A stretch of DNA of 64,000 bases, taken from the NCBI GenBank assembly GCA_019385495.1, contig GCA_019385495.1_4102.1. One strand, given 5' to 3'. The notes below the pieces were generated by a model that saw only the letters and a list, made by a program, of their open reading frames with translations, ran no database searches and was not told the origin of the DNA. Each line of letters starts with the position of its first letter. The stretch's first letter is position 1. Below, one piece after another: positions 5,403 through 59,112 of the stretch. This stretch comes from a phage. A program made the translations under genes and the position numbers.

Positions 5403-5472
5403 AAATAATTAAAATAACAGGATGATTATGATGTACTTCCTTTGTTATTAATTATATTGAGATTATATAACT

Positions 5473-5733
5473 ATGACAAACATCCAAAACTTGACATCTA
5501 TTATTTTTTATGCTACTGTAGTAATGTATGCTACAGTTATTTTTCTAACAGTTTTCATTTACAAAGATTATCGTAATGGCTTTATTGATCCAACTACAAT
5601 GAAGTTCAATTCAAAATTCGAAGCAATAATTTATTATGTACTATCAACTTCATACTTGGTGTGCCTAATGTTGTTAGGAGCACTAATTTATATCTTATAC
5701 ACAACATTATTTGCAATTGGAGCTATTTTATGA
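5473..5733 (+). CDS. membrane protein
   Basis: 86 aa with two predicted TM helices. Confidence 0.5.
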   Translation: MTNIQNLTSIIFYATVVMYATVIFLTVFIYKDYRNGFIDPTTMKFNSKFEAIIYYVLSTSYLVCLMLLGALIYILYTTLFAIGAIL

Positions 5734-6545: not shown

Positions 6546-6554
6546 GGATTGAAT

Positions 6555-7307
6555 ATGATATCAGAAAAATTTATAAGCAATGAAGGTAAAAAGCGATTAC
6601 TGATTATATCAGGTGCAGGACTTTCTGTTGAAAGTGGTATGGAACCTTTTCGATTTGATGATGGTTTGTGGGATACATTTAAAATTAATGATGTATGTAA
6701 CATTGCTAGTTTAACTACGAAATATCACGTTGTTCATTCCTTCTATAATACATTACGTGTAAAATTGGGACAATGCGAACCCAATGCAATGCATTATTTT
6801 ATAAAATCGTTAGAAGATCAATATGGTGATTGCTTCCTTCATATGACTTCTAACATGGACGATCTTTATACTCGTATTGGTGGTCATGAGCTTAAACTTC
6901 ATGGAAACTTGTGCGAAGTTATTGAAAATTATAGTATCAATTCCGATGATTATAATGTTATTAACTGCGGATACGAACCATACATACCAAAACATGATGT
7001 TTTTGCTAAACCAAATGTAGTAATGATTGGAGAATATCATCGTTATGTTGATGGTATTCGCTTACCAATTTACGAAGAACGAAATAATGTGTTGAAATCT
7101 CTTAATGAAAATGATACAGTTATTGTAATTGGTAGTAGCGATACAGTACTGGTATGGTCGAGATTAGCAGCAGCATTACCATGTTATAGTGTTAATGTTA
7201 ACATTCGTAAAAATGATAATGATTTTTTGTTTAATGAAAAAGTTATCAAGCCAGCAACCAAAGCAATACCGCATCTAGAGACTATAATTAAGGAACGTAT
7301 GAAATGA
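6555..7307 (+). CDS. Sir2-family (sirtuin-like) NAD-dependent enzyme
   Basis: ISGAGLSVESGMEPFRFDDGLW matches sirtuin GAGISxESGIxTFR; later blocks collinear with CobB; Zn-ribbon cysteines not evident. Confidence 0.75.
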   Translation: MISEKFISNEGKKRLLIISGAGLSVESGMEPFRFDDGLWDTFKINDVCNIASLTTKYHVVHSFYNTLRVKLGQCEPNAMHYFIKSLEDQYGDCFLHMTSNMDDLYTRIGGHELKLHGNLCEVIENYSINSDDYNVINCGYEPYIPKHDVFAKPNVVMIGEYHRYVDGIRLPIYEERNNVLKSLNENDTVIVIGSSDTVLVWSRLAAALPCYSVNVNIRKNDNDFLFNEKVIKPATKAIPHLETIIKERMK

Positions 7308-7855
7308 GTGTTAAAGAAGTTCCCTTTGGTGAATATGGCACACGTGCAAATTTTGTATTTTGTTATTTCTTTGCAAGAAAATGCAACCCTTACAAAAACT
7401 ATGAGTTGAATGATATACCAGAAGTAAATTTAGTATTACTGCAATTACGATGGGATGGTCTTCTTGGTGGATGTGGTGGAACCGTAGAAAGTACTGATAT
7501 CTCACTAGAAGATGCGTTGCGTCGTGAAGTTCAAGAAGAAATGGATTACAATATTTTTGTTTCCCATCTTCGACCACTCAAAACTTTTGAAATTTACCCA
7601 GGTGCAAACAGTCACAGTTTTAGCTATGAAGTAACCTATGACGAGTTGAAACACATTAGAGATGGATACACTAATGCTAAACATGCAAGTGCAGAAGTTG
7701 CTGGTGTAAATTTATGTCATATTTCTCGTTATTCTAAGGGACAAAATCGAGAAGCGGGATATAATAATCTTATGACACAGAACTTCATCGGTACAGCAAA
7801 ACAAGAATTGGAGTATCTGGTTCAAAAAGAAAACTTACTAATTAGTTATCTATAG
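7304..7855 (+). CDS. Nudix hydrolase
   Basis: Nudix box GGTVESTDISLEDALRREVQEEM; ATGA overlap with the Sir2 gene. Confidence 0.6.
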   Translation: MSVKEVPFGEYGTRANFVFCYFFARKCNPYKNYELNDIPEVNLVLLQLRWDGLLGGCGGTVESTDISLEDALRREVQEEMDYNIFVSHLRPLKTFEIYPGANSHSFSYEVTYDELKHIRDGYTNAKHASAEVAGVNLCHISRYSKGQNREAGYNNLMTQNFIGTAKQELEYLVQKENLLISYL

Positions 7856-26040: not shown

Positions 26041-26442
26041 ATGACTACAGTTGATGATATCTATAGCACTATACGCAATATGAGTACAGATAGAAAAGTA
26101 TTTGGCGATAAAGAAAAATCTAAGTGTTATGGTATTGATTCTTTTGATATAATTTCTTATGAGTACAATACAAGTGGAAATAGTTCACTGAATATCGTCT
26201 GTCCTCGTGACCCAGAAAATAATTTTATGTATGTTGAAATTAATAATGATGGAATGTTTTTTACAAAAGTTTTCAAAGGTGGAATTAATTACGAACCTAT
26301 TGAATGTATGAATGAAGAAACTTTCTTTCAAGAAGATACAATTATCAATTTAGGTTTTAGTTTTGATGATTATAAAACATTAGAACATGACTTTAATCGT
26401 TATTATAATGGTTTCTTAAAGGAGTTAACAATTTATCTATGA
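26041..26442 (+). CDS. hypothetical protein
   Basis: 133 aa ORF. Confidence 0.5.
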   Translation: MTTVDDIYSTIRNMSTDRKVFGDKEKSKCYGIDSFDIISYEYNTSGNSSLNIVCPRDPENNFMYVEINNDGMFFTKVFKGGINYEPIECMNEETFFQEDTIINLGFSFDDYKTLEHDFNRYYNGFLKELTIYL

Positions 26443-28709
26443 ATAACCAATATATTGAACAAACAATAGTGAAACACTTGGCTGGGTCACAAGCCTACGG
26501 AACCAGTACACCTGAAAGTGATACTGATTATCGTGGTATTTTTCTTGCTAATAAAGAATTTATTCTTACACCCTTCTATAAGGTCAAAGAGGTAGCTGAT
26601 AAAAGCGAAGAAGATACTAAATTCTATGAGTTGAATCAGTATTTAAAATTATACACTGAAGCTAACCCTAATATTCTTGAATCACTTTGGGTTGAACCTG
26701 AACACATTGTTGAAAGTACTGAAATTTATGACTATCTTCGTTCATTTAACCAAAAACTTCTTAGTTCCAAGATTGCATTTTCATATACTGGTTATGCATA
26801 TAATCAGATTAAGCGTATGACAAATCATCACGGTTGGATGGATAAAGAGCGTATTGCTGAAAAACGATTAAATGAGATTTTAGAAGAACACCCTGTCGAT
26901 GAGGTTCTTGCGTGGATGTATGATTCATTCCCACAGTATCTTGTTGAACGTTTAGATACATCGAACTTACATCCATTTAATGCTAAAAAGATTGATTTTG
27001 AAAAATATATGCGTGATACATCATTGCAGTTAGTTTCGAAAAATCCATTAAAGCAATATCATTTCGTAAGATTAGTGCATAACTACACTACTGAAAAAAT
27101 TCTTGATCGTGATTTCAATTTATTGAATTTTAATAATGGTTATGAACTAATTCATTACGGAGAAAACATTTTTGCGATTGTTAAAAATCCGAATGAAAGT
27201 ACTATCAATGGTGATGGTTCATTGCGTTATTTTTCTAAAGAGCGTAGTACTGAAGAGTTGAAAACTAAACCAGAACTAATTGTCAAATTTAACGAAAAAG
27301 AATATCAGGAAAATAGTGAGAATAGGAAAAGTTATCATAAATGGAAAGAAAATCGTAATGCCAAACGTGCTATTTTAGAATCACAACACGGATACGACTG
27401 TTATAGTTTTGATACTGAATTCTTAACTAAAGATGGTTGGAAATTATTTGACGACATCACTGATAAAGATCTATTAGCGACTTTTGATAAAAATCACAAA
27501 ATAGAGTATCAAAAATACACAGAACGTTTTGATAATTTATACAATGGAAATCTTTACCATTTCACTGGTCATCACCAAGATACGTTAGTGACTGCAAATC
27601 ACAGAATGTATGTTAAGAATTATGCACGTAATCAGCAAAAAGATATGTCAGAATGGCAATTTGTTGAAGCAGCACAATTAAAAGAAACTTATAAAATTTT
27701 GAATACATTATCTCCAATAACAAAGGAATATAAAGATAAAAAAAGCCCAATTGACTATATGGATATCAAAGTTTATCTTCAACTGATGGGATGGTTTCTT
27801 TCAGATGGTAGTATAAGTTTTAGAGATGGAAAAGTAAAATCATTATACATTTCACAATCAAAAGCCAGTCCTGGTATGCGTTGTGCTTTATCAAAATACA
27901 AACAATCTGGACAAATGATATTTCAGGAATACATTAACGAAAGAAAAGATTACCAATCAAATGATGAATCAAGATTTGTATTTCCACGTGAAGTGGCTGA
28001 AGCATTATATAATGATTGTGGGCATGGATCATATAATAAAAGAATTCCAAATTGGGCATTTGATTTAACAAAACGAAAAATGGATTTTCTGCTAAAAGGT
28101 TTGTTGCAAGGTGATGGTACAAAACGTAATTTGGTCAATCATGATGACACATATGTATATTATACTGCTAATTCATTATTAGCTGATGATGTTCAAAAAC
28201 TAGCATTACTGTGCGGTTATGAAACATCGAAATGGGGACCATACACAAACGAAACTAATTTTGGTTATATTGAAATGTATCAAGTTCATATCAATATGAA
28301 ACCTAAATCAGAAAAAATAAACATGAAACAAAATCTTGAAAAAATTCCAGTAACTAACTACAGAACTGTTTGTTTTTCAGTTCCGAACGGTACACTGGTT
28401 ACTCGTAGAAATGGTAAAACTGCATTACATGGAAACTGTAAACATGCTATGCACACAATCCGACTTTTGAATAGTGCAGAAGAAGCATTACAAAGTGGAA
28501 TTATTCAAGTTAAACGACCAGATGCACAAATGTTGATGGATATTCGTAATGGTAAATGGAAGTATGAAGAAGTCTTAGAATATTTCGATGATAAAGTACA
28601 ATACATTCGTGATGTTCTATATAAGAAATCAGTACTTCCTAAAAAACCAAACATCAAGTTAGCATCAAAAATTATCATTGATATTAGAGAAATGCAATGG
28701 TATAAGTAA
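26439..28709 (+). CDS. Pol-beta-superfamily nucleotidyltransferase interrupted by an intein
   Basis: N-terminal GSQAYG-x8-SDTDYRG NTase motif; 346-residue insertion with intein and LAGLIDADG hallmarks. Confidence 0.7.
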   Translation: MNNQYIEQTIVKHLAGSQAYGTSTPESDTDYRGIFLANKEFILTPFYKVKEVADKSEEDTKFYELNQYLKLYTEANPNILESLWVEPEHIVESTEIYDYLRSFNQKLLSSKIAFSYTGYAYNQIKRMTNHHGWMDKERIAEKRLNEILEEHPVDEVLAWMYDSFPQYLVERLDTSNLHPFNAKKIDFEKYMRDTSLQLVSKNPLKQYHFVRLVHNYTTEKILDRDFNLLNFNNGYELIHYGENIFAIVKNPNESTINGDGSLRYFSKERSTEELKTKPELIVKFNEKEYQENSENRKSYHKWKENRNAKRAILESQHGYDCYSFDTEFLTKDGWKLFDDITDKDLLATFDKNHKIEYQKYTERFDNLYNGNLYHFTGHHQDTLVTANHRMYVKNYARNQQKDMSEWQFVEAAQLKETYKILNTLSPITKEYKDKKSPIDYMDIKVYLQLMGWFLSDGSISFRDGKVKSLYISQSKASPGMRCALSKYKQSGQMIFQEYINERKDYQSNDESRFVFPREVAEALYNDCGHGSYNKRIPNWAFDLTKRKMDFLLKGLLQGDGTKRNLVNHDDTYVYYTANSLLADDVQKLALLCGYETSKWGPYTNETNFGYIEMYQVHINMKPKSEKINMKQNLEKIPVTNYRTVCFSVPNGTLVTRRNGKTALHGNCKHAMHTIRLLNSAEEALQSGIIQVKRPDAQMLMDIRNGKWKYEEVLEYFDDKVQYIRDVLYKKSVLPKKPNIKLASKIIIDIREMQWYK
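27399..28436 (+). mobile_element. intein with LAGLIDADG homing endonuclease (residues 321-666)
   Basis: Starts CYSFDTEF (block A), TANH (block B), LMGWFLSDGSI and LLKGLLQGDGTK (LAGLIDADG), ends ...ALHGN followed by Cys. Confidence 0.7.
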
Positions 28710-37114: not shown

Positions 37115-37120
37115 AAGAGG

Positions 37121-37480
37121 TTGAACATGAGTGATTACCGCGTAACATCTGGACTAATGGCACGTCTTATTGAAGCAGTTCCTGAAGATGATTATGAAGC
37201 TATTTCAGATCGTCTTTTTGACGCAGATTCTAAACTCCATATTACATATGATGGTGCATTGATTTACAGTACTGATATTGATATGTCTAGTTATGAATTT
37301 GAGATTTCTTTTGGTAACAAACTAACTACTGAAGAATTCGCTCGAAAATGTGAGCGTGAAGGATTCTGTATTGATATTAGTTCAGTTCAGCCATATACAT
37401 CACTGTGGTATGATGGTGCTGATAGTCCAATGTCTACTACATCTTTACAGGATTTTCTAAATGCAAATCAAAAAGATTAA
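37121..37480 (+). CDS. hypothetical protein
   Basis: 119 aa ORF. Confidence 0.5.
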   Translation: MNMSDYRVTSGLMARLIEAVPEDDYEAISDRLFDADSKLHITYDGALIYSTDIDMSSYEFEISFGNKLTTEEFARKCEREGFCIDISSVQPYTSLWYDGADSPMSTTSLQDFLNANQKD

Positions 37481-47880: not shown

Positions 47881-47910
47881 AAGGACTCTGTAAAAGAGTC
47901 CTTTCTTTTC
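47881..47910 (+). terminator. intrinsic terminator
   Basis: AAGGACTCT-GTAAA-AGAGTCCTT then T-run. Confidence 0.5.
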
Positions 47911-47920
47911 GGAGAATATA

Positions 47921-48397
47921 ATGATACATGAACACAGAGGTAATCTGTTTGAATTGTTCAGTACTGTTACCGATGATCAAAATGCATTACATATTATTGC
48001 TCACGGATGTAATGCTCAAGGTAAGATGGGTTCTGGTTTCGCAAAGGAACTAAGGAATCGCTACCCAATGGCATACGACGATTATAAAGAATATGAAAAG
48101 AAAATGGGTTTTCTAAGAACCGGACAAATTGCATATTCAGCAATTAATGATGATTTGATTGTCGCAAACTGTATCACTCAAAAATGGTACGGAACAGATG
48201 GTGCAAAATACGTAAGTTATGATGCAATCGACGATGTGTTCATACATCTAAATTATTTTTGTAAAGTTGATCGAGATGTTCATGTACACTTTCCGAAAAT
48301 TGGAGCCGATTTGGGCGGTGGTAACTGGAACGTTATCAAAGAAATCATTGATCACCGTCTGGTCAATGCAGAAAAACACTTATATATTCTAAAATAA
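47921..48397 (+). CDS. macro-domain protein (Poa1p-like ADP-ribose phosphate phosphatase family)
   Basis: HGCNAQGKMGSGFA resembles the Poa1p-type macro signature H-x-C-N-x-x-G-x-M-G-x-G-I-A. Confidence 0.55.
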   Translation: MIHEHRGNLFELFSTVTDDQNALHIIAHGCNAQGKMGSGFAKELRNRYPMAYDDYKEYEKKMGFLRTGQIAYSAINDDLIVANCITQKWYGTDGAKYVSYDAIDDVFIHLNYFCKVDRDVHVHFPKIGADLGGGNWNVIKEIIDHRLVNAEKHLYILK

Positions 48398-48407
48398 ACA
48401 AAAGGAC

Positions 48408-48725
48408 TTGACAAAAATGACTATGACCGTTAAACTACTAAACATCAATAACATTGGCCCAGTACTAGCAGTTCTTCAAACCGATTCTGCTGAAGCTGTT
48501 GTAGTTAACTACCCAGCACAACTAGGGACTGACGAAAATGGTGAAATCATTCTTCGTGATTATCTAGAGTTTGTTAGTATGGAGAAAAATGTTATTTTTT
48601 ATAAATCCAACATTATTAGTGTTAGTGATGCAAACCCTGCATTAGTTGATGCTTATGTTGATGCTATTAAAGCAATCGAAAACACTCCAAAAGTTTTCGT
48701 TCCTGAGAATAAAATCATTCTATAA
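48408..48725 (+). CDS. hypothetical protein
   Basis: 105 aa ORF. Confidence 0.5.
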   Translation: MTKMTMTVKLLNINNIGPVLAVLQTDSAEAVVVNYPAQLGTDENGEIILRDYLEFVSMEKNVIFYKSNIISVSDANPALVDAYVDAIKAIENTPKVFVPENKIIL

Positions 48726-48737
48726 TAGAGGTATATA

Positions 48738-49115
48738 ATGGCTGCTAATGACGTTAAAGTAAAAACTATCCAAGCTATCGTAGTACTGAAAGATTCTACA
48801 CCATCCCCTAAAGAATTAGTAATGGCTGGGATGACTATGTTACATCAATACAACCCTGAATCACCTAACTATGTTCAAGAATACGAAGCTAAGAAGTTTA
48901 AAGAACATTGGCAGTCATGGATTAAAGATAATGAAATGGAGCAGGTAGTATATGCTGCTGATGACATTTTCGAACTGGAACAAATTGAATATCTAGCTGG
49001 TCAACAATCAGTGCCATTGAGCATTTTCGGTAATGGTGAAGAAGTTCTGGTATTGGGACCATTCACTGCTGATGATATCATTCACTTACTGAGTAATTGT
49101 AAGAAAATTGAATAA
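48738..49115 (+). CDS. hypothetical protein
   Basis: 125 aa ORF. Confidence 0.5.
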   Translation: MAANDVKVKTIQAIVVLKDSTPSPKELVMAGMTMLHQYNPESPNYVQEYEAKKFKEHWQSWIKDNEMEQVVYAADDIFELEQIEYLAGQQSVPLSIFGNGEEVLVLGPFTADDIIHLLSNCKKIE

Positions 49116-49376
49116 AAATTCAAAACTATCAGGTTACCGTAACAACACGTTGAAGTACAATGATATTAAGTACTGGGTTGATCCTTACTTAAATAAATCA
49201 TTGTTAATGTACAGAGATAAATCACGAGATCTATATGGAATATATGTTACTCAGTTAATATATATAATAGATTCCGAACATTTTACTCCATTGGTATACC
49301 TGTACTGCTTGTATAATTCAAAATAACTATTAGCACCTCTAAATAATGTATATAAACATTAATGAGGTGCTTTTTT

Positions 49377-50168
49377 ATGTCTTACGATTATATGGGTGGA
49401 AACCCTGATGCTCCTAACTTTGACCATCGTGAAAAACTGAAAGATGTTATCACTCAAATGTTGGGTGCTGGGGCCGTTGAGGTAGAAATTACTGATGGTC
49501 AATTAGAAATTGCAATTGATAATGCGGTATCGAATTACAGAGCGTGGAGTTCTGCTTCTAAAGAAGAAGCATTTTTAAATATGAAATTTTATGATTCACA
49601 ATCTGTATATATGCTACCAACTGAAGTTGAAATTGTTAAAAAGATTTATCGTTATGGTAATGGTTACTTAAGTTCTGGTAGTGGGAACTCAGTAGACCCG
49701 TTCTCTCTAGCATTCACCAACACTTACTTATTGACTTCAGCACGAAATGCTGGTGGATATGATCTAACTACATATGATTTTAGTTTTCAGTTCCAAGAAC
49801 TGGTAGGTCGTATGTTTGGTCGTGATATTATATTTCAATTTAACCCAATGACCAAAAAATTAATTATAGATCGTGATATTCGTGGTACTGAAGAAGTACT
49901 ATTACACGTCTATCATAATATTCCTGAACCATTGTTGTTCCAAAGGCAGCAAAGTTATCCTTGGTTGCGTGATTGGGCTTTATCCGAAGCAATGATTATG
50001 TTGGGTCGTAACCGTGCTAAATTTGCATCGCTTCCTGGACCACAGGGAACGTTTTCTATGGATGGTGATACCTTACGCAATGAAGGTTTACAGCTTCAAG
50101 AACAGCTTAAAGAGCGTTTGAAACGTTATCAAGATGGTGCTGAACCACTCGGTATGATTATTGGTTAA
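49377..50168 (+). CDS. hypothetical protein (possibly virion-associated)
   Basis: Start at M6 of ORF 49362; start uncertain, no clear RBS. Confidence 0.45.
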   Translation: MSYDYMGGNPDAPNFDHREKLKDVITQMLGAGAVEVEITDGQLEIAIDNAVSNYRAWSSASKEEAFLNMKFYDSQSVYMLPTEVEIVKKIYRYGNGYLSSGSGNSVDPFSLAFTNTYLLTSARNAGGYDLTTYDFSFQFQELVGRMFGRDIIFQFNPMTKKLIIDRDIRGTEEVLLHVYHNIPEPLLFQRQQSYPWLRDWALSEAMIMLGRNRAKFASLPGPQGTFSMDGDTLRNEGLQLQEQLKERLKRYQDGAEPLGMIIG

Positions 50169-50173
50169 ATTAA

Positions 50174-50200
50174 AAGGACTCCTATATGGAGTCTTTTTTC
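50174..50200 (+). terminator. intrinsic terminator
   Basis: AAGGACTCC-TATAT-GGAGTCTT then T-run. Confidence 0.5.
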
Positions 50201-50244
50201 ATATTATGTGATATAATGATAATATTAATCTAAAGGAACTTGTC

Positions 50245-50514
50245 ATGAATAATAACATAAATGTAACGTATAACAGATATCGTTGTGGTAGACCAACGCT
50301 TGATTATGAATCAACTGAAAAGTACTGGAAATTTATCAAAGATTCAATCATTGATGTTATCGGTAGAGATCGAATAAATGCATGGGCGAGTATATATCGT
50401 GATGATGATGGGGAAACATTTTTTATTACTTATGTTTCTATATATTATGGTAATGAGTCAATTCTTGGATTACTTGAAAGTTTAGTAGGAAAGGATTTAA
50501 TAGAAATTATATAA
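50245..50514 (+). CDS. hypothetical protein
   Basis: 89 aa ORF. Confidence 0.45.
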   Translation: MNNNINVTYNRYRCGRPTLDYESTEKYWKFIKDSIIDVIGRDRINAWASIYRDDDGETFFITYVSIYYGNESILGLLESLVGKDLIEII

Positions 50515-50532
50515 AATACATGGAGTAGTATA

Positions 50533-51159
50533 ATGGGAAGACAAATAATTGCAATTAACGGAACTATTGGAAGTGGTAAAGATACATTTGGTGAATCTTT
50601 TATTAATAATGGTTACACACGAATGTCATTCGCAACCAATCTAAAAGATTCAGTTGCTGCTATCTTTGGATGGGACCGTGAAATGCTTGAGGGGTCAACT
50701 AAGGAAAGTCGTAAGATTCGTGAAGAACCGGATCAGTACTGGTGTGATAAGTTAGGTCGTAATGATGTATCCCCTCGATGGGTATTGCAGAATTATGGTA
50801 CTAATATTTTGCGTAAGTATTTTCATAATGATATTTGGGTATTCAGTTTAGAAAAATCAATGCAAGACATAGATGGAAATATCATCATCACTGATTGCCG
50901 TTTTCCAAATGAATTAAAAATGATTAGATCAAATAATGGGACTATTATTGAAGTTCAACGTGTTCTACCACATTGGTATGGTTTGGCTGCCTCTTATAAT
51001 AAAGGGGATATTAATATTAAACCAGTTGAACTAGAATCAGTGCACGAATCTGAGTGGGCTTGGATTGGAATAAACAACCCTGATATAATTGTACAGAATA
51101 ACAGTACTATTGATGATTTACATAAAAAAGCAATGGACATTATTTATTCTAATACATAA
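50533..51159 (+). CDS. deoxynucleoside monophosphate kinase (T4 gp1-like)
   Basis: P-loop IAINGTIGSGKDT resembles T4 dNMP kinase N-terminus (from memory). Confidence 0.65.
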   Translation: MGRQIIAINGTIGSGKDTFGESFINNGYTRMSFATNLKDSVAAIFGWDREMLEGSTKESRKIREEPDQYWCDKLGRNDVSPRWVLQNYGTNILRKYFHNDIWVFSLEKSMQDIDGNIIITDCRFPNELKMIRSNNGTIIEVQRVLPHWYGLAASYNKGDINIKPVELESVHESEWAWIGINNPDIIVQNNSTIDDLHKKAMDIIYSNT

Positions 51160-51253
51160 ATTATAAACAATAAGGACTGGACAATTAAATCCTTCAATAA
51201 ATAAGACTATACGAATATATTTCGAATAACCAATTATTTTTGGAGGATTTAAT

Positions 51254-53917
51254 ATGGCAGGAGATCTACTCTCACCTGGCGTTTCCATTTCAGTAACTGA
51301 TGAAAGTATGAGTACCGCTGCTGCTCCTGGCACTGTACCACTATTTGTAATCGCTACTGCTGAAGACAAACTTGTCCCAGGAAGCAGTGCAATAGCTGCG
51401 GGAACTACTAAAGCAAACGCTGGAAAACTACAGCTTCTAACATCACAAAAAAGTTCACTTGATACCTATGGTACACCAATTTTTCAAATGAATAACGGTT
51501 CTGTTGTTCAAGGTGATGAACTAAACGAATATGGCCTACATGCAGTATATTCTTATCTAGGCATTACTAACCGTGCATATGTAATTCGTGCTGATATCGA
51601 TCTAGCACAACTAGCACCAAGTGCTGAAGCACCAACTGGCCCAGTATCCAATGGTACTTTGTGGTTTGATACCGCACAATCACAAGTAGAAGCGTATGTA
51701 GCGAAGAAAGATAGTCCAAGCAGTTTTTATGATTGGCAACTTAAGCCAGTAACTATTGTAAGTGCTGAAGAAGTTGAAGATGTAAGTCTAGTAGGTTTAA
51801 ATGTTGATGATTTAGTTCTACGTTACAAACCAAGCAATGGTCAGATGCTAATGTATAAACGTTCTGCTTCTGGGCTAGTGCAAATGGAAACTTACCTATC
51901 ACCAATTAACAAAGTTCCAGTTGGCTCAACTGTAGAAAAAGGTAACATTTGGATTCGTGATGGTTACACCCAAAATGGTTCAAACTATTTTGGTACTCGT
52001 TTTGTTATTAAACGTTATGCATCCCTAACTCAAGTTTGGAATATTGTACCAGCATATACTGGTAATTCATTCCAAGAAATTGAAGCGAAAAGTGGTGTAC
52101 TAAACAATAGTTATATCGCATCTCGTTTTGATGAAGATAGTAAGAGTTTCTCTTTCTATATTCAAAGTGCAAAACTAACAACAATTAGTGCTCCTGCTTT
52201 GCCACTTGGTGAAACTATTATTGAACAAGCAGGTGCTGATAGTTATATGACTTTTGTTTATTTGAATAAATCAGTTAAAGTACTAGCAGTTCCACAAGGC
52301 GGTGTTATTAATACCCAAACTATCATCAATAATCTAAATGCAAATGCTGAAATTATTAACGATGGTTTTAAATTTAAACGTGAAACTAATGGTGGTTTAG
52401 TTGTTTCCAATACAAAAGGTTACAGTTTCAAAATCACACAAAGTGGTGATGATATTTTTGCTGAATCTGAACTACAAAAACTAACAGTAGATAGTAACAA
52501 CTACTCTCTAATTAACGTGAATAACTTCCGTGTTAGTTATTCAGTACCACGTAGTGTAGCAAAAGAAGGAACTCTCTGGTATGATTTCGGGAACTCCGAT
52601 AATTTAACTGTAACTATGTATGTTGCTGATGTTGCTAATGATGAATGGGATCTAGTACAAGAAGAAAACAAATATGTACAAGTTGATGAACCAGCGGCTG
52701 ACCGTTTAATTTGGGTTTGTCCTTTGTCTCAAGGCATTGATGGTTATGATTTCTATCGCAACGTTGATGGTGAATGGGTTAAACTTGACAGTACTGACCA
52801 AAGTACACTAAATGGTATGATTTTCCAAGACTTTAATTTCCCAAGCCAAGTTCCTGCGGCGGCATTGTATCAAAATGGTATGCTTGCAGTTGACCTAGGT
52901 AACACTGAAGGTGTTGTTAAGAAAATGGTTAATGGTCAATGGGAAGTTGTTAGTGGTGTAAGTCTTGATGGTGCTGGCCTATTTGGTCGTGCTGCACAAC
53001 GTCAACTAGTAGTTGAAGCACTAGCTGCTGTTATTATTGGTAATGATGACATTCGTTCTGAATTTATTGATTTTAACCTAATTTGTGTACCTGGTTACGT
53101 TGAAACACTTGATGAATGTGTAACTTTAAACACTGATCGTAAAGAAACTGCATTTATTGTTACTGACGTTCCAGCACGTTTGAATCCAACCGGAAACGGT
53201 AGTGCTGTACAACAATGGGCTACTAATGCTAACAATGCACCAAGTAACGGTTCAGTTGGTCGTACAACTGCTTATGATTATGCTGCTCAGTATATGGGTT
53301 GGTGTCTAAGTACTAACGTTGATGGTGAAGAAGTTGCAGTTCCTGGTAGTACTATTGCAATGCGTACATATGCATATAGTGATAGTGTTAGTTATGTATG
53401 GTATCCACCTGCTGGTACAACTCGTGGTGTTGTAACAAACGCTGCAAGTACTGGTTTTATCAACAGCGAAGGTGAATATCAACCAGTAGTATATAACCAA
53501 GGTCAACGTGACGTTATGTATACTAACAACATTAACCCAATTGCAATGCGTCCTAACCGTGGTTTGCTTGTTTATGGAGATAAAACTCTATCTGCTAATC
53601 AAACTTCTGCACTAAGTCGTGTTAACGTTGCTCGTTTAGTTGTTTATATTCGTCGTCAACTAGAAATTATTTCCGAACCATTCCTATTCCGTTTGAATAC
53701 TCCAAGTACTCGTCAGGAATTTAGTGGTGTAGTTAATAGTTTCTTGGCTGAAATTGTTCAACAACAGGGTCTTTATAACTTCGCAGTAGTTTGTGATGAA
53801 AGTAACAATACCGCAGAGCGTATTGACCGTAATGAACTTTGGATGGATATTGCAATCCAACCAACTAAGAGTATTAACTTCATTTACGTACCAATCCGTA
53901 TAGAAAAAACTCAATAA
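51254..53917 (+). CDS. contractile tail sheath protein (gp18-like)
   Basis: N-terminal LLSPGV; C-terminal VYGDKT...VNVARL...VVCDESNNT...IDRNE...IQP..SINFIY matches T4 gp18 C-terminal domain (from memory). Confidence 0.85.
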   Translation: MAGDLLSPGVSISVTDESMSTAAAPGTVPLFVIATAEDKLVPGSSAIAAGTTKANAGKLQLLTSQKSSLDTYGTPIFQMNNGSVVQGDELNEYGLHAVYSYLGITNRAYVIRADIDLAQLAPSAEAPTGPVSNGTLWFDTAQSQVEAYVAKKDSPSSFYDWQLKPVTIVSAEEVEDVSLVGLNVDDLVLRYKPSNGQMLMYKRSASGLVQMETYLSPINKVPVGSTVEKGNIWIRDGYTQNGSNYFGTRFVIKRYASLTQVWNIVPAYTGNSFQEIEAKSGVLNNSYIASRFDEDSKSFSFYIQSAKLTTISAPALPLGETIIEQAGADSYMTFVYLNKSVKVLAVPQGGVINTQTIINNLNANAEIINDGFKFKRETNGGLVVSNTKGYSFKITQSGDDIFAESELQKLTVDSNNYSLINVNNFRVSYSVPRSVAKEGTLWYDFGNSDNLTVTMYVADVANDEWDLVQEENKYVQVDEPAADRLIWVCPLSQGIDGYDFYRNVDGEWVKLDSTDQSTLNGMIFQDFNFPSQVPAAALYQNGMLAVDLGNTEGVVKKMVNGQWEVVSGVSLDGAGLFGRAAQRQLVVEALAAVIIGNDDIRSEFIDFNLICVPGYVETLDECVTLNTDRKETAFIVTDVPARLNPTGNGSAVQQWATNANNAPSNGSVGRTTAYDYAAQYMGWCLSTNVDGEEVAVPGSTIAMRTYAYSDSVSYVWYPPAGTTRGVVTNAASTGFINSEGEYQPVVYNQGQRDVMYTNNINPIAMRPNRGLLVYGDKTLSANQTSALSRVNVARLVVYIRRQLEIISEPFLFRLNTPSTRQEFSGVVNSFLAEIVQQQGLYNFAVVCDESNNTAERIDRNELWMDIAIQPTKSINFIYVPIRIEKTQ

Positions 53918-53925
53918 AACACTAA

Positions 53926-53950
53926 GGGAACCTTTTGGTTCCCTTTTTTA
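53926..53950 (+). terminator. intrinsic terminator
   Basis: GGGAACC-TTTT-GGTTCCC then six T. Confidence 0.6.
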
Positions 53951-54312
53951 TTGTTTAAAATTAAATACCTTTATATTGATGTTATAAGGGGACATTATGG
54001 ATATGGAAGAAATACTAAAAAGAACAATACAAGATGTCAGTAAAATAGTTTTAACTCAGTTAGAATCAATACACATACTAAATATATTTTTAAAAAATTT
54101 AGAAGATTGTCGGTATAATTGAAAAATACGAAGTATACACAAATGGAAAATGGTCTATATCAGTAAACTATATTGACCACACTAAACGAAAAAGATACTT
54201 ATATTGTGTTAATATTAATTGGTTCCCTGTTGATGACACTTTAGTTAATTAAAAATATACTTCCAGATAGATAAATAATATAAAGATGTCATTCCATAAT
54301 AGGAGAATATAA

Positions 54313-54999
54313 ATGGCTACAATGCTTGATCGATATGGCGTACCGCTCGCTGGCGGTGGTCGTATCTCTATGAAACAACCAAAAGCAAAATACAAATTTC
54401 GTGTTATTTTCTTTGGTTTTGGTACTAATGATGATGGTAATATGATTACACTAGACACCAATACAGTTGGGGCAGTATCTGTATCACATGAAAACGTCAC
54501 TGTTCATAGTTACAACAGTTCTGCACACTACAAAGGGAAATACACTTGGGATACAATTGATGTTGCTTTCCGTGACTCAGTAGGTAATGCTTCTGCTAAA
54601 GCACTATACAACCAAATGCGTAAAGAATTTAACTACTACAGTCAAGAATCTCGCATGACAGATTCACAATTTAAATTTGAAATGTGGATTCAAGAGCTTG
54701 ATGGTTCTAATAGTGAAAATACAACAAACTTGTTTGAAGGAACATTGAGTACTTGGGTATGTCAAGGTTGCTTTATTGAATCCAGCAACTTTGGTGATTG
54801 GGATTATTCCTCAAGTGAAGCACAAGTTATTTCAATGACTGTTCAACCAGATGGTTGTGCTAAATTGGGTCCAAATGGCGAAGCGTTCGGTGATGAAGTT
54901 AGTGGCTTCGGTAATCCATCAACTGCTACCTCTATTTCTGGTGCACAAACTAATATTAGTAGTACTACTCTACCAGATAGTAACTTCTACGAAAATTAA
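54313..54999 (+). CDS. putative tail tube protein (paralogue 1)
   Basis: Directly downstream of sheath; N-terminus YGVPL...QPKAKYKFRVI shared with next gene; position-based call. Confidence 0.45.
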   Translation: MATMLDRYGVPLAGGGRISMKQPKAKYKFRVIFFGFGTNDDGNMITLDTNTVGAVSVSHENVTVHSYNSSAHYKGKYTWDTIDVAFRDSVGNASAKALYNQMRKEFNYYSQESRMTDSQFKFEMWIQELDGSNSENTTNLFEGTLSTWVCQGCFIESSNFGDWDYSSSEAQVISMTVQPDGCAKLGPNGEAFGDEVSGFGNPSTATSISGAQTNISSTTLPDSNFYEN

Positions 55000-55021
55000 T
55001 TTTATTTAAACTTAATATATA

Positions 55022-55050
55022 GCCTCGAATCTATTCGGGGCTTTTTTTAT
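55022..55050 (+). terminator. intrinsic terminator
   Basis: GCCTCGAAT...ATTCGGGGC then seven T. Confidence 0.45.
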
Positions 55051-55093
55051 GCTAAATAAAGTATAATGCCTTATAAAATAAAAAGAGGTTGCT

Positions 55094-55870
55094 ATGGCAA
55101 ATAACATGATTAATAAATATGGCGTTCCTTTACCATCGGGGCGTAATCGTTCAATGCTACAACCGAAAGCAAAATACAAGTTTCGTGTTATTGTGTATAA
55201 TTTCGGTACTGATATAGATGAACGTGATCACATCGCATTAGATGTTGATAAAATAGATAGACCTACTGTAACATTTAGTACTCATAAACTATATCAATTT
55301 ACTACTAATACTTCCTATATAGGTAGTCATGATTGGGAACCAATTACTATATCTATACGTGATTCAGTTGGAAATGCATCAGCAAAAGCATTATCACGCC
55401 AACTACAAAAACAACTTGACTTTCAACGCAGAATAACTTCAAGAAATGACCAAGATTATGGTTCTTATAAATTTGGTTTAGTTATACAGATGTTGAGTGG
55501 TCGTAACTCAGATGATACGCTAGAAAATCTAGGAAGAGATACACTAGTAGATGCTGCAACTGCTGCAACAAATAATGCTGGCTTAGTAAATGCAGTAGAT
55601 CAATTTATTGGTGGTTCTTCTTATAACAGTGCTGGTGTTATGGAATACTTTGTTTTAACCGGATGTGTTATTCAAAACATATCATACGATTCATTAGACT
55701 ATAGTTCAAGTTCTCCAGTTGAAATGGTAGTGACTATCAAACCAGATAATTGTATACAATTTGATAACATTGAAGAAATGTATAGTACCAGAATTAATTC
55801 ACTTTTACCTGAAAATGTCAATCAAGGTTTAGATATCATTGATCGTGTTTTTGGTAGTGTAGGATTTTAA
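55094..55870 (+). CDS. putative tail tube protein (paralogue 2)
   Basis: Paralogue of 54313..54999. Confidence 0.45.
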   Translation: MANNMINKYGVPLPSGRNRSMLQPKAKYKFRVIVYNFGTDIDERDHIALDVDKIDRPTVTFSTHKLYQFTTNTSYIGSHDWEPITISIRDSVGNASAKALSRQLQKQLDFQRRITSRNDQDYGSYKFGLVIQMLSGRNSDDTLENLGRDTLVDAATAATNNAGLVNAVDQFIGGSSYNSAGVMEYFVLTGCVIQNISYDSLDYSSSSPVEMVVTIKPDNCIQFDNIEEMYSTRINSLLPENVNQGLDIIDRVFGSVGF

Positions 55871-55881
55871 GGAGATAATGA

Positions 55882-57989
<2,108 letters not shown>

Positions 57990-58016
57990 CTTAAACGACC
58001 TTATGGAGTTATTAAA

Positions 58017-58553
58017 ATGAATAGATTACAACAAATCCTAACTGAAAAGAAACCAGTTTATGAATACCGAGTTAAGTTTGCAGTTGAACCAACACCTGAG
58101 CAACTTAGTAAAGTAACACAGCGACTAATGGATCGCTATGATGCGTTTGAAATTGGAGCACTAAAGAAAACAATTTTTATGGAAAAACCATTAGATTTCT
58201 ATGAATTAGATTGTGGTGAAATTTGGATGTTTGACTTTAAATGTCATCGTGGCGTTCAATCAAATGTACTAATGTATGAAATTGGCAATTTACTAAGCAT
58301 GACAGAAGCATTGATTCGTGTTCGTAGTAAAGATGAACCTCGTCAAATTGAAATGACTGATTTGGAAGATGATATCGATTTTGATGATGTTGATGAACCA
58401 GTTATTGGCGTGGATTTTGGTAAACCAGAAGACAGTTATGACTTAGCTGGACAACAACGTGCAAACACTGCCGTTGATGATGCAATTGAAGCATCGAAAA
58501 AAGACAATAAATACTCTCAATATATGAGTGCTGGTTTTGGTAAAAAGGATTAA
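58017..58553 (+). CDS. hypothetical protein
   Basis: 178 aa ORF. Confidence 0.5.
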   Translation: MNRLQQILTEKKPVYEYRVKFAVEPTPEQLSKVTQRLMDRYDAFEIGALKKTIFMEKPLDFYELDCGEIWMFDFKCHRGVQSNVLMYEIGNLLSMTEALIRVRSKDEPRQIEMTDLEDDIDFDDVDEPVIGVDFGKPEDSYDLAGQQRANTAVDDAIEASKKDNKYSQYMSAGFGKKD

Positions 58554-58556
58554 CAC

Positions 58557-59099
58557 ATGAGTATACTTAATGAAATGTTAGATTATGAAGACAATGAGTT
58601 AAATGAAGCTCGTCCTTATAGTCGTTCACAAAGTGCAGTTGATAGTGCAAAAGGAAAAGTAAAAGGCTTTTTTGGTAGTGGACAGATTGAACAAGGTGCA
58701 CAAGAAGTTGGTGCTGAAGCCAACCGCTTATGGGCAGAGTTTAAACGTTATGTTGGACGTAAATATGGTAAAGCTCAACCATCAGTACCTTACGCTGATG
58801 TGGCACAGTTTTTTAAAGGTAACAATCTTGATATTAAACATTTAGGGAACAATCCTCGTCGTTCTTTTACACCAAAAGATGTAGGTACTGCTCTATTAAA
58901 TGCTGCTCGTGATATAATGAATGACTACCGTGACCAACAAGGTGGCGAAGAAAGTTCAGAATCACAACCATCACAATCGACCTCAACTGAGCAACCAGCA
59001 CAACAAGAACAACCAAAAGCACAAGGTTCCAGTATCCCTGATGCTCTACAAAAATTAAGTCCAGAGCAACGCGACCAACTGTTACGTATGCTTTCTTAA
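58557..59099 (+). CDS. hypothetical protein
   Basis: 180 aa ORF. Confidence 0.5.
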   Translation: MSILNEMLDYEDNELNEARPYSRSQSAVDSAKGKVKGFFGSGQIEQGAQEVGAEANRLWAEFKRYVGRKYGKAQPSVPYADVAQFFKGNNLDIKHLGNNPRRSFTPKDVGTALLNAARDIMNDYRDQQGGEESSESQPSQSTSTEQPAQQEQPKAQGSSIPDALQKLSPEQRDQLLRMLS

Positions 59100-59112
59100 G
59101 GAGAATCAACAC

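What the first reader, a model, noticed from the sequence alone, without database searches (positions are those of the whole stretch)
47921..48397. Macro-domain protein near Nudix, CCA enzyme and glutaredoxin
HGCNAQGKMGSGFA resembles the Poa1p-type macro signature (ADP-ribose 1''-phosphate phosphatase family). Macro domains remove or process ADP-ribose. Sir2, two Nudix genes, a 2H enzyme and a macro domain in one phage genome amount to a full ADP-ribose processing set, spread over 6.5-48 kb.
Basis: partly seen in the sequence, partly recalled or inferred. Interest (0 to 1): 0.55.

Follow-up and report, generated by a model that had tools for sequence, protein, structure and literature searches.

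The report
Phage stand-alone macrodomain, likely anti-DarT
This gene of an E. coli jumbo phage encodes a small enzyme that removes ADP-ribose tags; it most likely strips the tags that a bacterial defence toxin (DarT2) puts on phage DNA, as its phage T4 relative appears to do, so it is a real but fairly ordinary member of a recently explained gene family.

Summary
The ORF at 47921-48397 (+, 158 aa) is real and is a macrodomain (AF2 pLDDT 95.7; best folds BT1257, Poa1p, SCO6735, DarG, TARG1). The window comes from a 121Q/PBECO4-type E. coli jumbo phage, where the orthologue (gp544) is already annotated as a macro domain. The protein belongs to the TARG1/ALC1-like class. Within it, it falls in the H-x-C-N...N-x-x-T-Q clade, shared with S. 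coelicolor SCO6735 (shown to cleave thymidine-linked ADP-ribose on DNA) and T4 Tk.4/AdfM (needed for T4 to resist DarTG2). The SCO6735 residues His24, Asn27 and Gln85 correspond to H28, N31 and Q87, which are invariant in 79 of 79 viral homologues. It is not a DarG: it has Gln in place of the catalytic Lys, no DarT-binding domain and no DarT neighbour. It is only loosely Poa1p-like. Sir2, two Nudix genes and a minimal 2H gene do exist in the window. However, phage distributions are discordant (macro 2400 records, Sir2 987, 2H 77, Nudt16-like Nudix 75), and synteny holds only within the Rak2/121Q lineage (16 of 80 loci). They are therefore not shown to form a functional set. Most likely role: orphan-antitoxin-like eraser of DarT2 DNA ADP-ribosylation, inferred and not tested. 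New member of a known kind; low-to-moderate interest.

The parts
47921..48397 (+). Macrodomain gene (158 aa), orthologue of 121Q gp544. It is a stand-alone TARG1/ALC1-like macrodomain of the SCO6735 / T4 Tk.4 (AdfM) type.
48002..48043 (+). Motif HGCNAQGKMGSGFA (aa 28-41), the first ADP-ribose-binding/catalytic loop. H28 and N31 correspond to SCO6735 His24 and Asn27 and are invariant in the family.
48167..48181 (+). Motif NCITQ (aa 83-87). Q87 occupies the position of the catalytic Lys of TARG1 (K84) and DarG (K80), and of the essential Gln85 of SCO6735. It is invariant in 79 of 79 viral homologues.
48293..48328 (+). Motif PKIGADLGGGNW (aa 125-136), the glycine-rich diphosphate-binding loop shared with BT1257, SCO6735, TARG1 and DarG.
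47911..47914 (+). GGAG ribosome-binding site, 6 nt upstream of the ATG.
   Evidence: read directly from the sequence
47881..47909 (+). Terminator-like hairpin (9-bp stem, 5-nt loop) plus a U-tract between the upstream small ORF and the macro gene. It also scores on the minus strand.
   Evidence: (dG -14.2 kcal/mol, z = -3.2)
47995..48214 (+). Recombination-like divergence patch inside the macro gene. 36 of the gene's 42 mismatches to 121Q fall in this interval, in an 18.5-kb region that is otherwise 99.3% identical. Across the gene, 29 codon changes are synonymous and 9 are not.
45470..47341 (+). Context only, lineage-specific synteny with no functional link shown: CCA-adding enzyme (45470-46582), Nudix (46690-47091) and glutaredoxin (47093-47341).
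6549..7855 (+). Context only: Sir2 (6549-7307) and a Nudt16-like Nudix (7304-7855) whose start overlaps the Sir2 stop (ATGA). About 40 kb from the macro gene.
41383..41793 (+). Context only: minimal 2H-SAK-type phosphoesterase candidate (136 aa; H57-x-S and H127-x-T).

Best explanation
The gene encodes a stand-alone, catalytically competent macrodomain ADP-ribosylhydrolase of the TARG1/ALC1-like class, in the glutamine-type clade (H-x-C-N ... N-x-x-T-Q ... P-x-I-G-x-x-L-G-G-G) that also holds SCO6735 and T4 Tk.4 (AdfM). Most likely it acts as an orphan-antitoxin-like counter-defence enzyme. When a host DarTG2 system releases DarT2, which ADP-ribosylates thymidines in single-stranded phage DNA and blocks replication, the phage macrodomain binds the ADP-ribose moiety and hydrolyses the base-ribose bond, restoring the DNA. 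By analogy with SCO6735, Q87 (held in place by N31) would position the distal ribose, and a backbone-held water at residue 29 would start the reaction. Shown here: the fold, clade membership, conservation of the H/N/Q triad, purifying selection, a stand-alone architecture with no fixed partner gene, and homology to Tk.4. Inferred: the substrate (thymidine-ADP-ribose on DNA) and the biological role (anti-DarTG2).
For: Fold and class: AF2 pLDDT 95.7; Foldseek TM 0.72-0.84 to BT1257, Poa1p, SCO6735, DarG and TARG1. The top hit among viral models is a tk.4 protein (TM 0.82). Clade: family-profile scores are BT1257 97, T4 Tk.4 87, SCO6735 78, Poa1p 57, DarG 54-55 and PhiKZ gp104 50 bits. hhalign against T4 Tk.4 gives probability 99.6% and E 6e-24, BLASTP gives 31% identity, and both fall in PHROG 335. 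Active site: H28, N31 and Q87 align with SCO6735 His24, Asn27 and Gln85, and all three are invariant in 79 of 79 viral homologues; Q87 was not part of the retrieval pattern. In SCO6735, Q85A and Q85E abolish and N27S nearly abolishes cleavage of DarT-modified DNA, and the enzyme rescues E. coli from DarT toxicity (PMC9411070). Genetics in a relative: deleting T4 tk.4 sensitises T4 to DarTG2 (bioRxiv 10.1101/2025.11.20.689424). A DarG-clade phage macrodomain, PhiKZ gp104, removes DarT2 ADP-ribose from DNA (PMC13309987). Host relevance: DarTG systems occur in E. coli (PMC7003065 abstract). Stand-alone accessory behaviour: no conserved partner gene in 64 non-syntenic viral loci, and plasmid or cellular homologues are orphans without DarT. 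Allelic mosaicism with purifying selection fits an accessory gene that is exchanged but kept functional.
Against: No experiment exists on this protein or on any Asteriusvirus orthologue. Identity to both characterised relatives is only about 27-31%. The two lysines that support DNA binding in SCO6735 (K34, K89) are not conserved in position: residue 38 is Ser, although K35 and K88 lie nearby. T4 Tk.4 also has Ser at that position. The evidence for T4 Tk.4 is genetic only and comes from a preprint, so its substrate has not been shown biochemically. SCO6735 also hydrolyses Glu/Asp-linked protein ADP-ribose and uracil-linked RNA ADP-ribose, so homology does not fix the substrate. The gene sits directly behind a terminator-like hairpin and just upstream of neck and tail genes, so early expression is not evident. 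Whether this phage's natural hosts carry DarTG2 was not examined.
Confidence: 0.55

Rival explanations
1. Metabolite processing. The macrodomain would act as a Poa1p-like ADP-ribose-1''-phosphate phosphatase and/or an O-acetyl-ADP-ribose deacetylase. It would work downstream of the phage Sir2 and 2H enzymes, with the Nudix enzymes then cleaving free ADP-ribose.
For: The H-x-C-N-x-x-G signature and the fold are shared with Poa1p. Sir2, two Nudix genes and a 2H-SAK candidate are present in the same window. Iyer et al. 2021 proposed such roles for jumbo-phage Macro, 2H and Nudix domains. TARG1-class macrodomains are annotated as O-acetyl-ADP-ribose deacetylases in PDB.
Against: Poa1p scores lower than BT1257, Tk.4 and SCO6735 against the family profile. 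Poa1p has Ser at the Q87 position, and its S30 and F152 are not conserved here. The phage distributions are discordant: macro 2400 records, Sir2 987, 2H 77, Nudt16-like Nudix 75. In the spread listings, T4-like genomes show macro hits but no Sir2 hits, and T5-like genomes show Sir2 hits but no macro hits. There is no neighbourhood link outside one lineage. Sir2 pairs with its own overlapping Nudix. No Tpt1/KptA gene was seen in the annotated stretches of 121Q that were read.
Confidence: 0.15
2. Eraser of other ADP-ribosylation. The enzyme would remove ADP-ribose from proteins (Glu/Asp-linked) or from RNA bases (uracil), countering a host ADP-ribosyltransferase toxin other than DarT2. It might protect tRNA or mRNA together with the nearby RNA-repair genes (CCA-adding enzyme, RlaP, 2H).
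For: SCO6735 hydrolyses Glu/Asp-linked PARP1 ADP-ribose and uracil-linked RNA ADP-ribose. The window carries RNA-repair-type genes: CCA enzyme, RlaP nucleotidyltransferase and 2H-SAK. RNA-targeting ADP-ribosyltransferase defences exist, for example CmdTAC as cited.
Against: The link to the CCA and Nudix genes is lineage-specific synteny only. SCO6735 was reported inactive on 2'-OH-linked and 5'-phosphate-linked RNA ADP-ribose in the results of PMC11833690. CmdT adenine ADP-ribosylation is so far described as irreversible. The only in vivo phenotype known for a clade member is against DarTG2.
Confidence: 0.17
3. Degrader of ADP-ribose-derived immune signals, such as TIR/Thoeris-type cyclic ADP-ribose isomers, as predicted in general terms for jumbo-phage Macro and NADAR domains.
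For: The prediction appears in Iyer et al. 2021. The domain binds ADP-ribose.
Against: No member of the TARG1/SCO6735/Tk.4 clade is known to do this. The conserved triad matches a glycohydrolase acting on ribose-base or ribose-carboxylate bonds. No literature support was found.
Confidence: 0.05
4. Regulator of the phage's own ADP-ribosyltransferases, reversing or limiting self-inflicted ADP-ribosylation as in ART/macro pairs.
For: T4-like phages that carry tk.4 also encode Alt, ModA and ModB.
Against: No homologue of T4 Alt, ModA or ModB, nor of the NADAR AdfN, was detectable in the complete 352-kb genome of a 98%-identical relative (phmmer E <= 1; a weak negative from single-sequence seeds). 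T4 ARTs modify arginine (own knowledge), which TARG1-class macrodomains are not known to reverse.
Confidence: 0.04

Closest known systems
T4 Tk.4 = AdfM (anti-DarT factor macrodomain), bioRxiv 10.1101/2025.11.20.689424
   Same: Stand-alone phage macrodomain of about 155 aa in the same PHROG 335. hhalign probability 99.6%. Same HGCN, N-x-x-T-Q and P-x-IGAG motifs, including Gln at the catalytic position and Ser at position 38.
   Different: Only 27-31% identity. Different genome context: the T4 early tk/vs region against a block between lysis/translation genes and neck/tail genes here. The anti-DarTG2 phenotype is shown for T4 only. In a rough NJ tree the window clade groups with SCO6735 and BT1257, not directly with Tk.4.
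Streptomyces coelicolor SCO6735 (PDB 5E3B), PMC9411070
   Same: TARG1/ALC1-like macrodomain with the essential His24/Asn27/Gln85 arrangement, matching H28/N31/Q87 here. An orphan with no adjacent DarT. Profile E 2.8e-21 and TM 0.76-0.81.
   Different: A cellular, DNA-damage-inducible protein. Its DNA-binding K34 and K89 and its Val25 are Ser38, a gap/Gly91 and Gly29 here. About 27% identity.
Bacteroides thetaiotaomicron BT1257 (PDB 2FG1/2AFC)
   Same: The best sequence and structure match among solved chains (profile E 2.2e-27, TM 0.82), with the same H/N/Q positions.
   Different: A structural-genomics protein of unknown function, so it carries no functional information.
DarG2 antitoxin macrodomain and PhiKZ gp104 AdfM (PMC13309987)
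   Same: Same macrodomain class. The expected reaction, removal of DarT2 ADP-ribose from thymidine, and the counter-defence logic are the same.
   Different: These form a different clade. They have a catalytic Lys (FPTK motif) where this protein has Gln, and N/I where this protein has H28. DarG has an extra DarT-binding domain. The NCBIfam DarG score here is 31.5 bits against a cut-off of 250.
Yeast Poa1p (PDB 6LFQ), ADP-ribose-1''-phosphate phosphatase
   Same: Shares the H-x-C-N-x-x-G signature (H23 = H28) and the fold (TM 0.74).
   Different: Poa1p has Ser at the Q87 position, S30 corresponds to K35, F152 to G132, and it has a long insertion before the last strand. Its profile score is lower at 57 bits.
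Human TARG1/OARD1 (PDB 4J5S)
   Same: Same class and a compact fold (TM 0.76-0.84). TARG1 also reverses thymidine- and uracil-linked ADP-ribose.
   Different: TARG1 uses a Lys84/Asp125 dyad. Position 87 here is Gln, as in SCO6735, whose Gln85 is equivalent to TARG1 Lys84. The Asp125 equivalent was not aligned with a tool; from my own recall of the TARG1 sequence it corresponds to Gly132.

Membership tests
Macrodomain superfamily | Three-layer alpha/beta/alpha macro fold | tested here: met
   AF2 pLDDT 95.7 and pTM 0.91. 213 PDB matches at E <= 1e-3, and the listed top matches are macrodomains or macrodomain-derived designs.
Macrodomain superfamily | Pfam PF01661 at or above the gathering score | tested here: not met
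   17.7 bits against a cut-off of 22 for this sequence. Many homologues at 40-70% identity do carry PF01661, so the shortfall reflects divergence and not absence of the domain.
Macrodomain superfamily | Glycine-rich ADP-ribose/diphosphate-binding loops | tested here: met
   G34, G37 and G39, and I127-G128-x-x-L-G-G-G, are conserved and align with the loops of BT1257, SCO6735, DarG and Poa1p.
SCO6735-like (Gln-type) TARG1/ALC1-class hydrolases | His24/Asn27/Gln85 equivalents, with Gln at the TARG1 K84 / DarG K80 position | tested here: met
   H28, N31 and Q87 align and are invariant in 62 of 62 and 79 of 79 homologues. Their roles are defined in PMC9411070.
SCO6735-like (Gln-type) TARG1/ALC1-class hydrolases | DNA-binding lysines K34 and K89 | tested here: not met
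   Position 38 is Ser and the K89 equivalent is a gap/Gly91. K35 and K88 lie adjacent but are not conserved across the family: position 35 is mostly Val and position 88 mostly Glu.
SCO6735-like (Gln-type) TARG1/ALC1-class hydrolases | Hydrolysis of thymidine-linked ADP-ribose on ssDNA | not testable with these tools
   Requires a biochemical assay.
AdfM (T4 Tk.4 type) | Phage-encoded stand-alone macrodomain homologous to Tk.4 | tested here: met
   hhalign probability 99.6% and E 6e-24, same PHROG 335, top BFVD hit is a tk.4 protein, and the 158-aa protein has no extra domain.
AdfM (T4 Tk.4 type) | Required for phage growth on DarTG2-expressing hosts | not testable with these tools
   The phenotype is known only for T4 and PhiKZ/PhiPA3.
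DarG (type II TA antitoxin) | Catalytic lysine (K80) in the F-P-T-K motif | tested here: not met
   Gln87 in an I-T-Q motif.
DarG (type II TA antitoxin) | C-terminal DarT-binding domain and an adjacent darT gene | tested here: not met
   The protein is 158 aa and consists of the macro domain only. NCBIfam DarG scores 31.5 bits against a cut-off of 250. The neighbours are small ORFs of unknown function, a Nudix and a glutaredoxin.
Poa1p family (ADP-ribose-1''-phosphate phosphatase) | Residues targeted by the deposited Poa1p mutants (H23, S30, F152) | tested here: inconclusive
   H23 corresponds to H28 and is conserved. S30 corresponds to K35 and F152 to G132, which are not conserved. The functional meaning of the mutants was not read from a paper.
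Poa1p family (ADP-ribose-1''-phosphate phosphatase) | Closest relationship by profile score | tested here: not met
   Poa1p scores 57 bits against 97 (BT1257), 87 (Tk.4) and 78 (SCO6735).
Operonic ADP-ribose processing module (Sir2 + Macro + Nudix + 2H) | Co-localisation or co-occurrence of the components across genomes | tested here: not met
   Record counts are 2400, 987, 75 and 77. Sir2 lies within 6 kb of the macro gene in 2 of 80 loci, the Nudt16-like Nudix in 0 of 80, and the 2H gene in 10 of 80, all of these in the Rak2/121Q lineage.

The most novel reading that the evidence does not exclude
The Gln-type phage macrodomain could be a broad eraser of base-linked ADP-ribose on both DNA (thymine) and RNA (uracil), and not a DarT2-specific antidote. 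In the Rak2/121Q lineage it would be kept beside tRNA/RNA maintenance genes (CCA-adding enzyme, Nudix, and RlaP and 2H-SAK further upstream) because it also rescues ADP-ribosylated tRNA or mRNA from a host RNA-targeting ADP-ribosyltransferase that has not yet been described. Its unusual allelic mosaicism would then reflect exchange of alleles tuned to different host toxins.
Probability: 0.1. Interest if true: 0.6.

Novelty: new member of a known kind. Interest (0 to 1): 0.3.

Why it matters
If the inference holds, 121Q/PBECO4-type jumbo coliphages, which are being studied for use against pathogenic E. coli, carry a ready-made antidote to DarTG2. That would help predict their host range on strains armed with this defence. 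The comparison also shows that the two phage proteins both named AdfM belong to mechanistically different macrodomain clades: T4 Tk.4 and this protein are Gln-type like SCO6735, while PhiKZ gp104 is Lys-type like DarG. Phages therefore seem to have recruited ADP-ribose erasers against DarT2 at least twice. About 2400 of 50,697 phage genome records carry a homologue of this protein at tblastn E <= 1e-3. For the scan itself, the result is a caution. Several NAD/ADP-ribose-related domains in one large phage genome do not make a pathway.

Tried and rejected
(1) DarG membership. The PADLOC and NCBIfam DarG profiles hit (E 3.4e-10 and 1e-7), but far below the curated cut-off, with Gln in place of the catalytic Lys and no second domain. 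Rejected.

(2) A Poa1p orthologue. Rejected as the closest family.

(3) A functional set with Sir2, Nudix and 2H. Tested by phage-wide counts and by neighbourhoods in 80 IMG/VR loci. Not supported.

(4) A recurrent partner gene in the non-syntenic loci. Neighbour clustering found none; the largest genuine cluster covers 7 of 64 loci, and the two larger clusters are antisense ORFs overlapping the macro gene.

(5) The downstream ORF 48738-49115 as a peptidyl-tRNA hydrolase, as annotated by HHpred in phage fENko-Kae01. No support from Pfam, PHROGs or phmmer against PDB.

(6) A promoter scan. Sigma-70-like sites are not enriched (26 found against 27.8 expected), so the timing of expression is unresolved.

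(7) Phage-encoded ART, NADAR or a second macro gene. None found with T4 Alt, ModA, ModB and AdfN seeds or the family HMM in the full genome of a 98%-identical relative. This is only a weak negative, and Tpt1/KptA was not searched with a profile.

(8) Reading the 121Q annotation tables for such genes. Abandoned after about 164 of 348 kb, because nearly everything is labelled 'hypothetical protein'.

(9) Positive selection as the cause of the divergence hotspot. Rejected, because 29 of 38 changed codons are synonymous. A recombination patch is preferred.

(10) Rfam and tRNA scans around the locus. Nothing found.

(11) A genome paper on a close relative, fEgEco12. It does not mention macro, Sir2 or ADP-ribose.
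Full report
**What is there.** The ORF at 47921-48397 on the + strand encodes 158 aa. It starts at an ATG, with a GGAG ribosome-binding site 6 nt upstream, and contains HGCNAQGKMGSGFA at residues 28-41. The window is from an Asteriusvirus-type E. coli jumbo phage. The 3 kb around the gene is 98.7% identical to phages slurp01, G17 and Sharanji, and 98.3% identical to 121Q. The orthologue, 121Q gp544, is already annotated 'macro domain-containing protein / Appr-1-p processing domain protein'. The domain call is therefore not new.

**Is it a macrodomain?** Yes.
- PHROG 335 ('phosphatase') matches at E 1.3e-44.
- phmmer against PDB chains finds BT1257 (2e-14), SCO6735 (4.8e-10), Poa1p (1.5e-7) and M. 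tuberculosis DarG (0.01).
- Pfam Macro is sub-threshold for this sequence (17.7 against 22 bits), although many homologues carry PF01661.
- An AlphaFold2 model built on 62 homologues has pLDDT 95.7 and pTM 0.91.
- Foldseek against PDB gives BT1257 (TM 0.82), Poa1p (0.74), SCO6735 (0.76/0.81), T. aquaticus DarG (0.72/0.75) and TARG1 (0.76/0.84), followed by coronavirus and YmdB macrodomains.

All the best matches belong to the TARG1/ALC1-like class.

**Which clade?** A profile of the family scores the reference proteins as follows: BT1257 97 bits, T4 Tk.4 87, SCO6735 78, Poa1p 57, DarG 54-55 and PhiKZ gp104 50. A structure-independent alignment shows three things:
- Position 28 is His in the window protein, T4 Tk.4, BT1257, SCO6735 and Poa1p. 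It is Asn in DarG and Ile in PhiKZ gp104.
- Position 31 is Asn in all of them.
- Position 87 is Gln in the window protein, Tk.4, BT1257 and SCO6735. It is Lys in DarG and PhiKZ gp104, and Ser in Poa1p. This is the position of the catalytic Lys84 of TARG1 and Lys80 of DarG.

H28, N31 and Q87 are invariant in 62 database homologues and in 79 of 79 homologues from viral contigs. The retrieval patterns included HGCN but not Q87, so the invariance of Q87 is independent evidence.

**What is known about that clade.**
- SCO6735 cleaves thymidine-linked ADP-ribose from DarT-modified ssDNA and rescues E. coli from DarT. Q85A and Q85E abolish activity and N27S nearly does; H24Y is inactive but misfolded. 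K34 and K89 help bind DNA. The proposed mechanism is substrate positioning by Gln85 plus a water held by the backbone of Val25 (PMC9411070). SCO6735 also removes Glu/Asp-linked protein ADP-ribose and uracil-linked RNA ADP-ribose (PMC13036486). It was inactive on 2'-OH-linked RNA ADP-ribose (PMC11833690).
- T4 tk.4 encodes a macrodomain named AdfM, and deleting it sensitises T4 to DarTG2 (bioRxiv 10.1101/2025.11.20.689424). I fetched Tk.4. It is 31% identical to the window protein, matches the family profile at hhalign probability 99.6%, falls in the same PHROG 335, and carries the same HGCN, N-x-x-T-Q and P-x-IGAG motifs. The best match to the model among viral predicted structures is a tk.4 protein of Acinetobacter phage 133 (TM 0.82).
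- PhiKZ gp104, also named AdfM, removes DarT2 ADP-ribose from DNA (PMC13309987). It is a DarG-clade protein with the FPTK lysine, and it is only distantly related to the window protein.

**Best explanation.** The protein is a Gln-type, stand-alone ADP-ribosylhydrolase. Its most probable role is that of an orphan-antitoxin-like eraser of DarT2 thymidine ADP-ribosylation on phage DNA.
- Shown: the fold, the clade, the conserved triad, purifying selection and the stand-alone architecture.
- Inferred: the substrate and the role.
- Caveats: identity to the characterised relatives is only about 30%. The DNA-binding lysines of SCO6735 are not conserved in position (S38; K35 and K88 are nearby but variable). 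The Tk.4 evidence is genetic and from a preprint. The gene lies directly behind a stable terminator-like hairpin at 47881-47903 (dG -14.2 kcal/mol, z = -3.2) and upstream of neck and tail genes, so early expression is not evident.

I put 0.55 on this role, and about 0.9 on 'catalytically competent macrodomain hydrolase'.

**The 'ADP-ribose processing set'.** The components exist:
- Sir2, 6549-7307 (73 bits).
- A Nudt16-like Nudix, 7304-7855 (68.6 bits).
- A second Nudix, 46690-47091 (48.5 bits).
- A 136-aa 2H candidate, 41383-41793. Pfam 2H-SAK scores 25.6 bits against a gathering score of 27, and most homologues carry PF22547. H57, H127 and T129 are invariant and S59 is nearly so. The AF2 model has pLDDT 90.2. 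Its top folds are Usb1, LigT and CPDase, but only weakly (TM about 0.45).

Nothing ties them to the macro gene:
- Homologues occur in 2400 (macro), 987 (Sir2), 77 (2H) and 75 (Nudt16-like Nudix) of 50,697 phage records.
- In the spread listings, macro hits include many T4-like genomes of 165-178 kb and no T5-like genomes. Sir2 hits include many T5-like genomes of 106-123 kb and no T4-like genomes.
- In 80 IMG/VR loci, the block CCA-Nudix-Grx-x-x-macro-x-x-neck is present only in the 16 loci of the Rak2/121Q lineage. It is also seen in Klebsiella phage fENko-Kae01. It is absent from the other 64 loci. Sir2 lies within 6 kb in 2 loci and the Nudt16-like Nudix in none.
- No other partner recurs in those loci. 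The neighbours are ligases, thymidylate synthase, topoisomerase II, NMNAT-Nudix and homing endonucleases.
- The Sir2 stop codon overlaps the start of the Nudt16-like Nudix (ATGA), so that pair is the more plausible unit.
- The general notion of Macro, NADAR, Nudix, Sir2 and 2H repertoires in jumbo phages is already published (PMC7824862).

**Other context.**
- Plasmid or cellular homologues are orphans without a DarT neighbour. One sits in a RepA/TraG conjugative-element context.
- The complete genome of a 98%-identical relative has only one macro gene. It has no detectable homologue of T4 Alt, ModA, ModB or the NADAR AdfN (a weak negative).
- No Rfam family or tRNA lies near the locus.

**An unexpected detail.** Against 121Q, the interval 45470-64000 is 99.27% identical, yet 42 of its 135 mismatches fall inside the 477-nt macro gene. 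About 2.5 would be expected (Poisson P about 1e-36). 36 of the 42 fall in the interval 47995-48214, and 29 codon changes are synonymous against 9 non-synonymous. No sequenced phage has this allele: the best DNA identity is 93.3%, with other Asteriusvirus alleles at 91, 90, 85 and 76%. This looks like recombinational allele exchange under purifying selection, not positive selection.

**Verdict.** The gene is a new, untested member of a known kind, the phage AdfM/SCO6735-type macrodomains. Interest is low to moderate.

Noticed in passing
window 47995-48214 (inside the macro gene): A sharp divergence patch. 42 mismatches to 121Q fall in the 477-nt gene, against about 2.5 expected from the 99.3%-identical surroundings, and 29 of 38 changed codons are synonymous. 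No sequenced phage carries this allele (best identity 93.3%). It looks like recombinational allele exchange under purifying selection.
   Followed up: partly
window 44838-45464 (+): A 208-aa HNH homing-endonuclease ORF (PHROG 953, E 2.5e-66; no Pfam hit) that is absent at this site in 121Q. The first 250 nt of the adjacent CCA gene carry 13 mismatches to 121Q, which could be a co-conversion tract.
   Followed up: partly
window 26439-28709 (+): An RlaP-type RNA-repair nucleotidyltransferase (Pfam RlaP, 55 bits) of 756 aa, against 410 aa in 121Q gp506. The roughly 1-kb insertion (about 27401-28437) contains a LAGLIDADG-like domain, so it is probably an intein or an in-frame homing-endonuclease insertion.
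   Followed up: partly
window 6549-7855 (+): The Sir2 stop codon overlaps the start of a Nudt16-like Nudix (ATGA). The Nudix family occurs in only 75 phage records, all listed ones large Rak2-like phages apart from four Aeromonas phages, and several annotated records show a Sir2 gene beside it. This is a possible NAD-consuming/ADP-ribose-cleaving pair of unknown role.
   Followed up: partly
window 41383-41793 (+): A very small (136 aa) 2H-SAK-type phosphoesterase with invariant H57-x-S and H127-x-T, restricted to 77 phage records, mostly Rak2-like jumbo phages plus Bacillus phage G and Agrobacterium phage Atu_ph07. Fold matches to Usb1 and LigT are weak.
   Followed up: yes
window 48738-49115 (+): The orthologue of this ORF, two genes downstream of the macro gene, is annotated in Klebsiella phage fENko-Kae01 as similar to an archaeal peptidyl-tRNA hydrolase (HHpred 97.8%). 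Pfam, PHROGs and phmmer against PDB gave no support here. It was not tested by structure.
   Followed up: partly
window 47881-47909 (both strands): A stable 9-bp hairpin with U-tracts on both strands (a bidirectional terminator-like element) 12 nt upstream of the macro start codon. How the macro gene is transcribed is unclear.
   Followed up: partly
window ~37116-37451: Another insertion relative to 121Q, overlapping an ORF of unknown function (37121-37480; PHROG 10749).
   Followed up: no
loci L098-L100 (gene at 5001-5501): A 41%-identical orphan macrodomain homologue lies in a RepA_C / TraG-TrwB context on contigs of 124 to 823 kb, which suggests conjugative elements. That would fit protection of transferred ssDNA from DarT-type toxins.
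   Followed up: no
T4 tk.4 (L004:6926-7390, minus strand) against PhiKZ gp104 (L003:12518-13003): The two phage proteins both named AdfM in the 2025-2026 literature belong to different macrodomain clades. T4 Tk.4 has Gln at the catalytic position, like SCO6735. PhiKZ gp104 has Lys, like DarG.
   Followed up: yes
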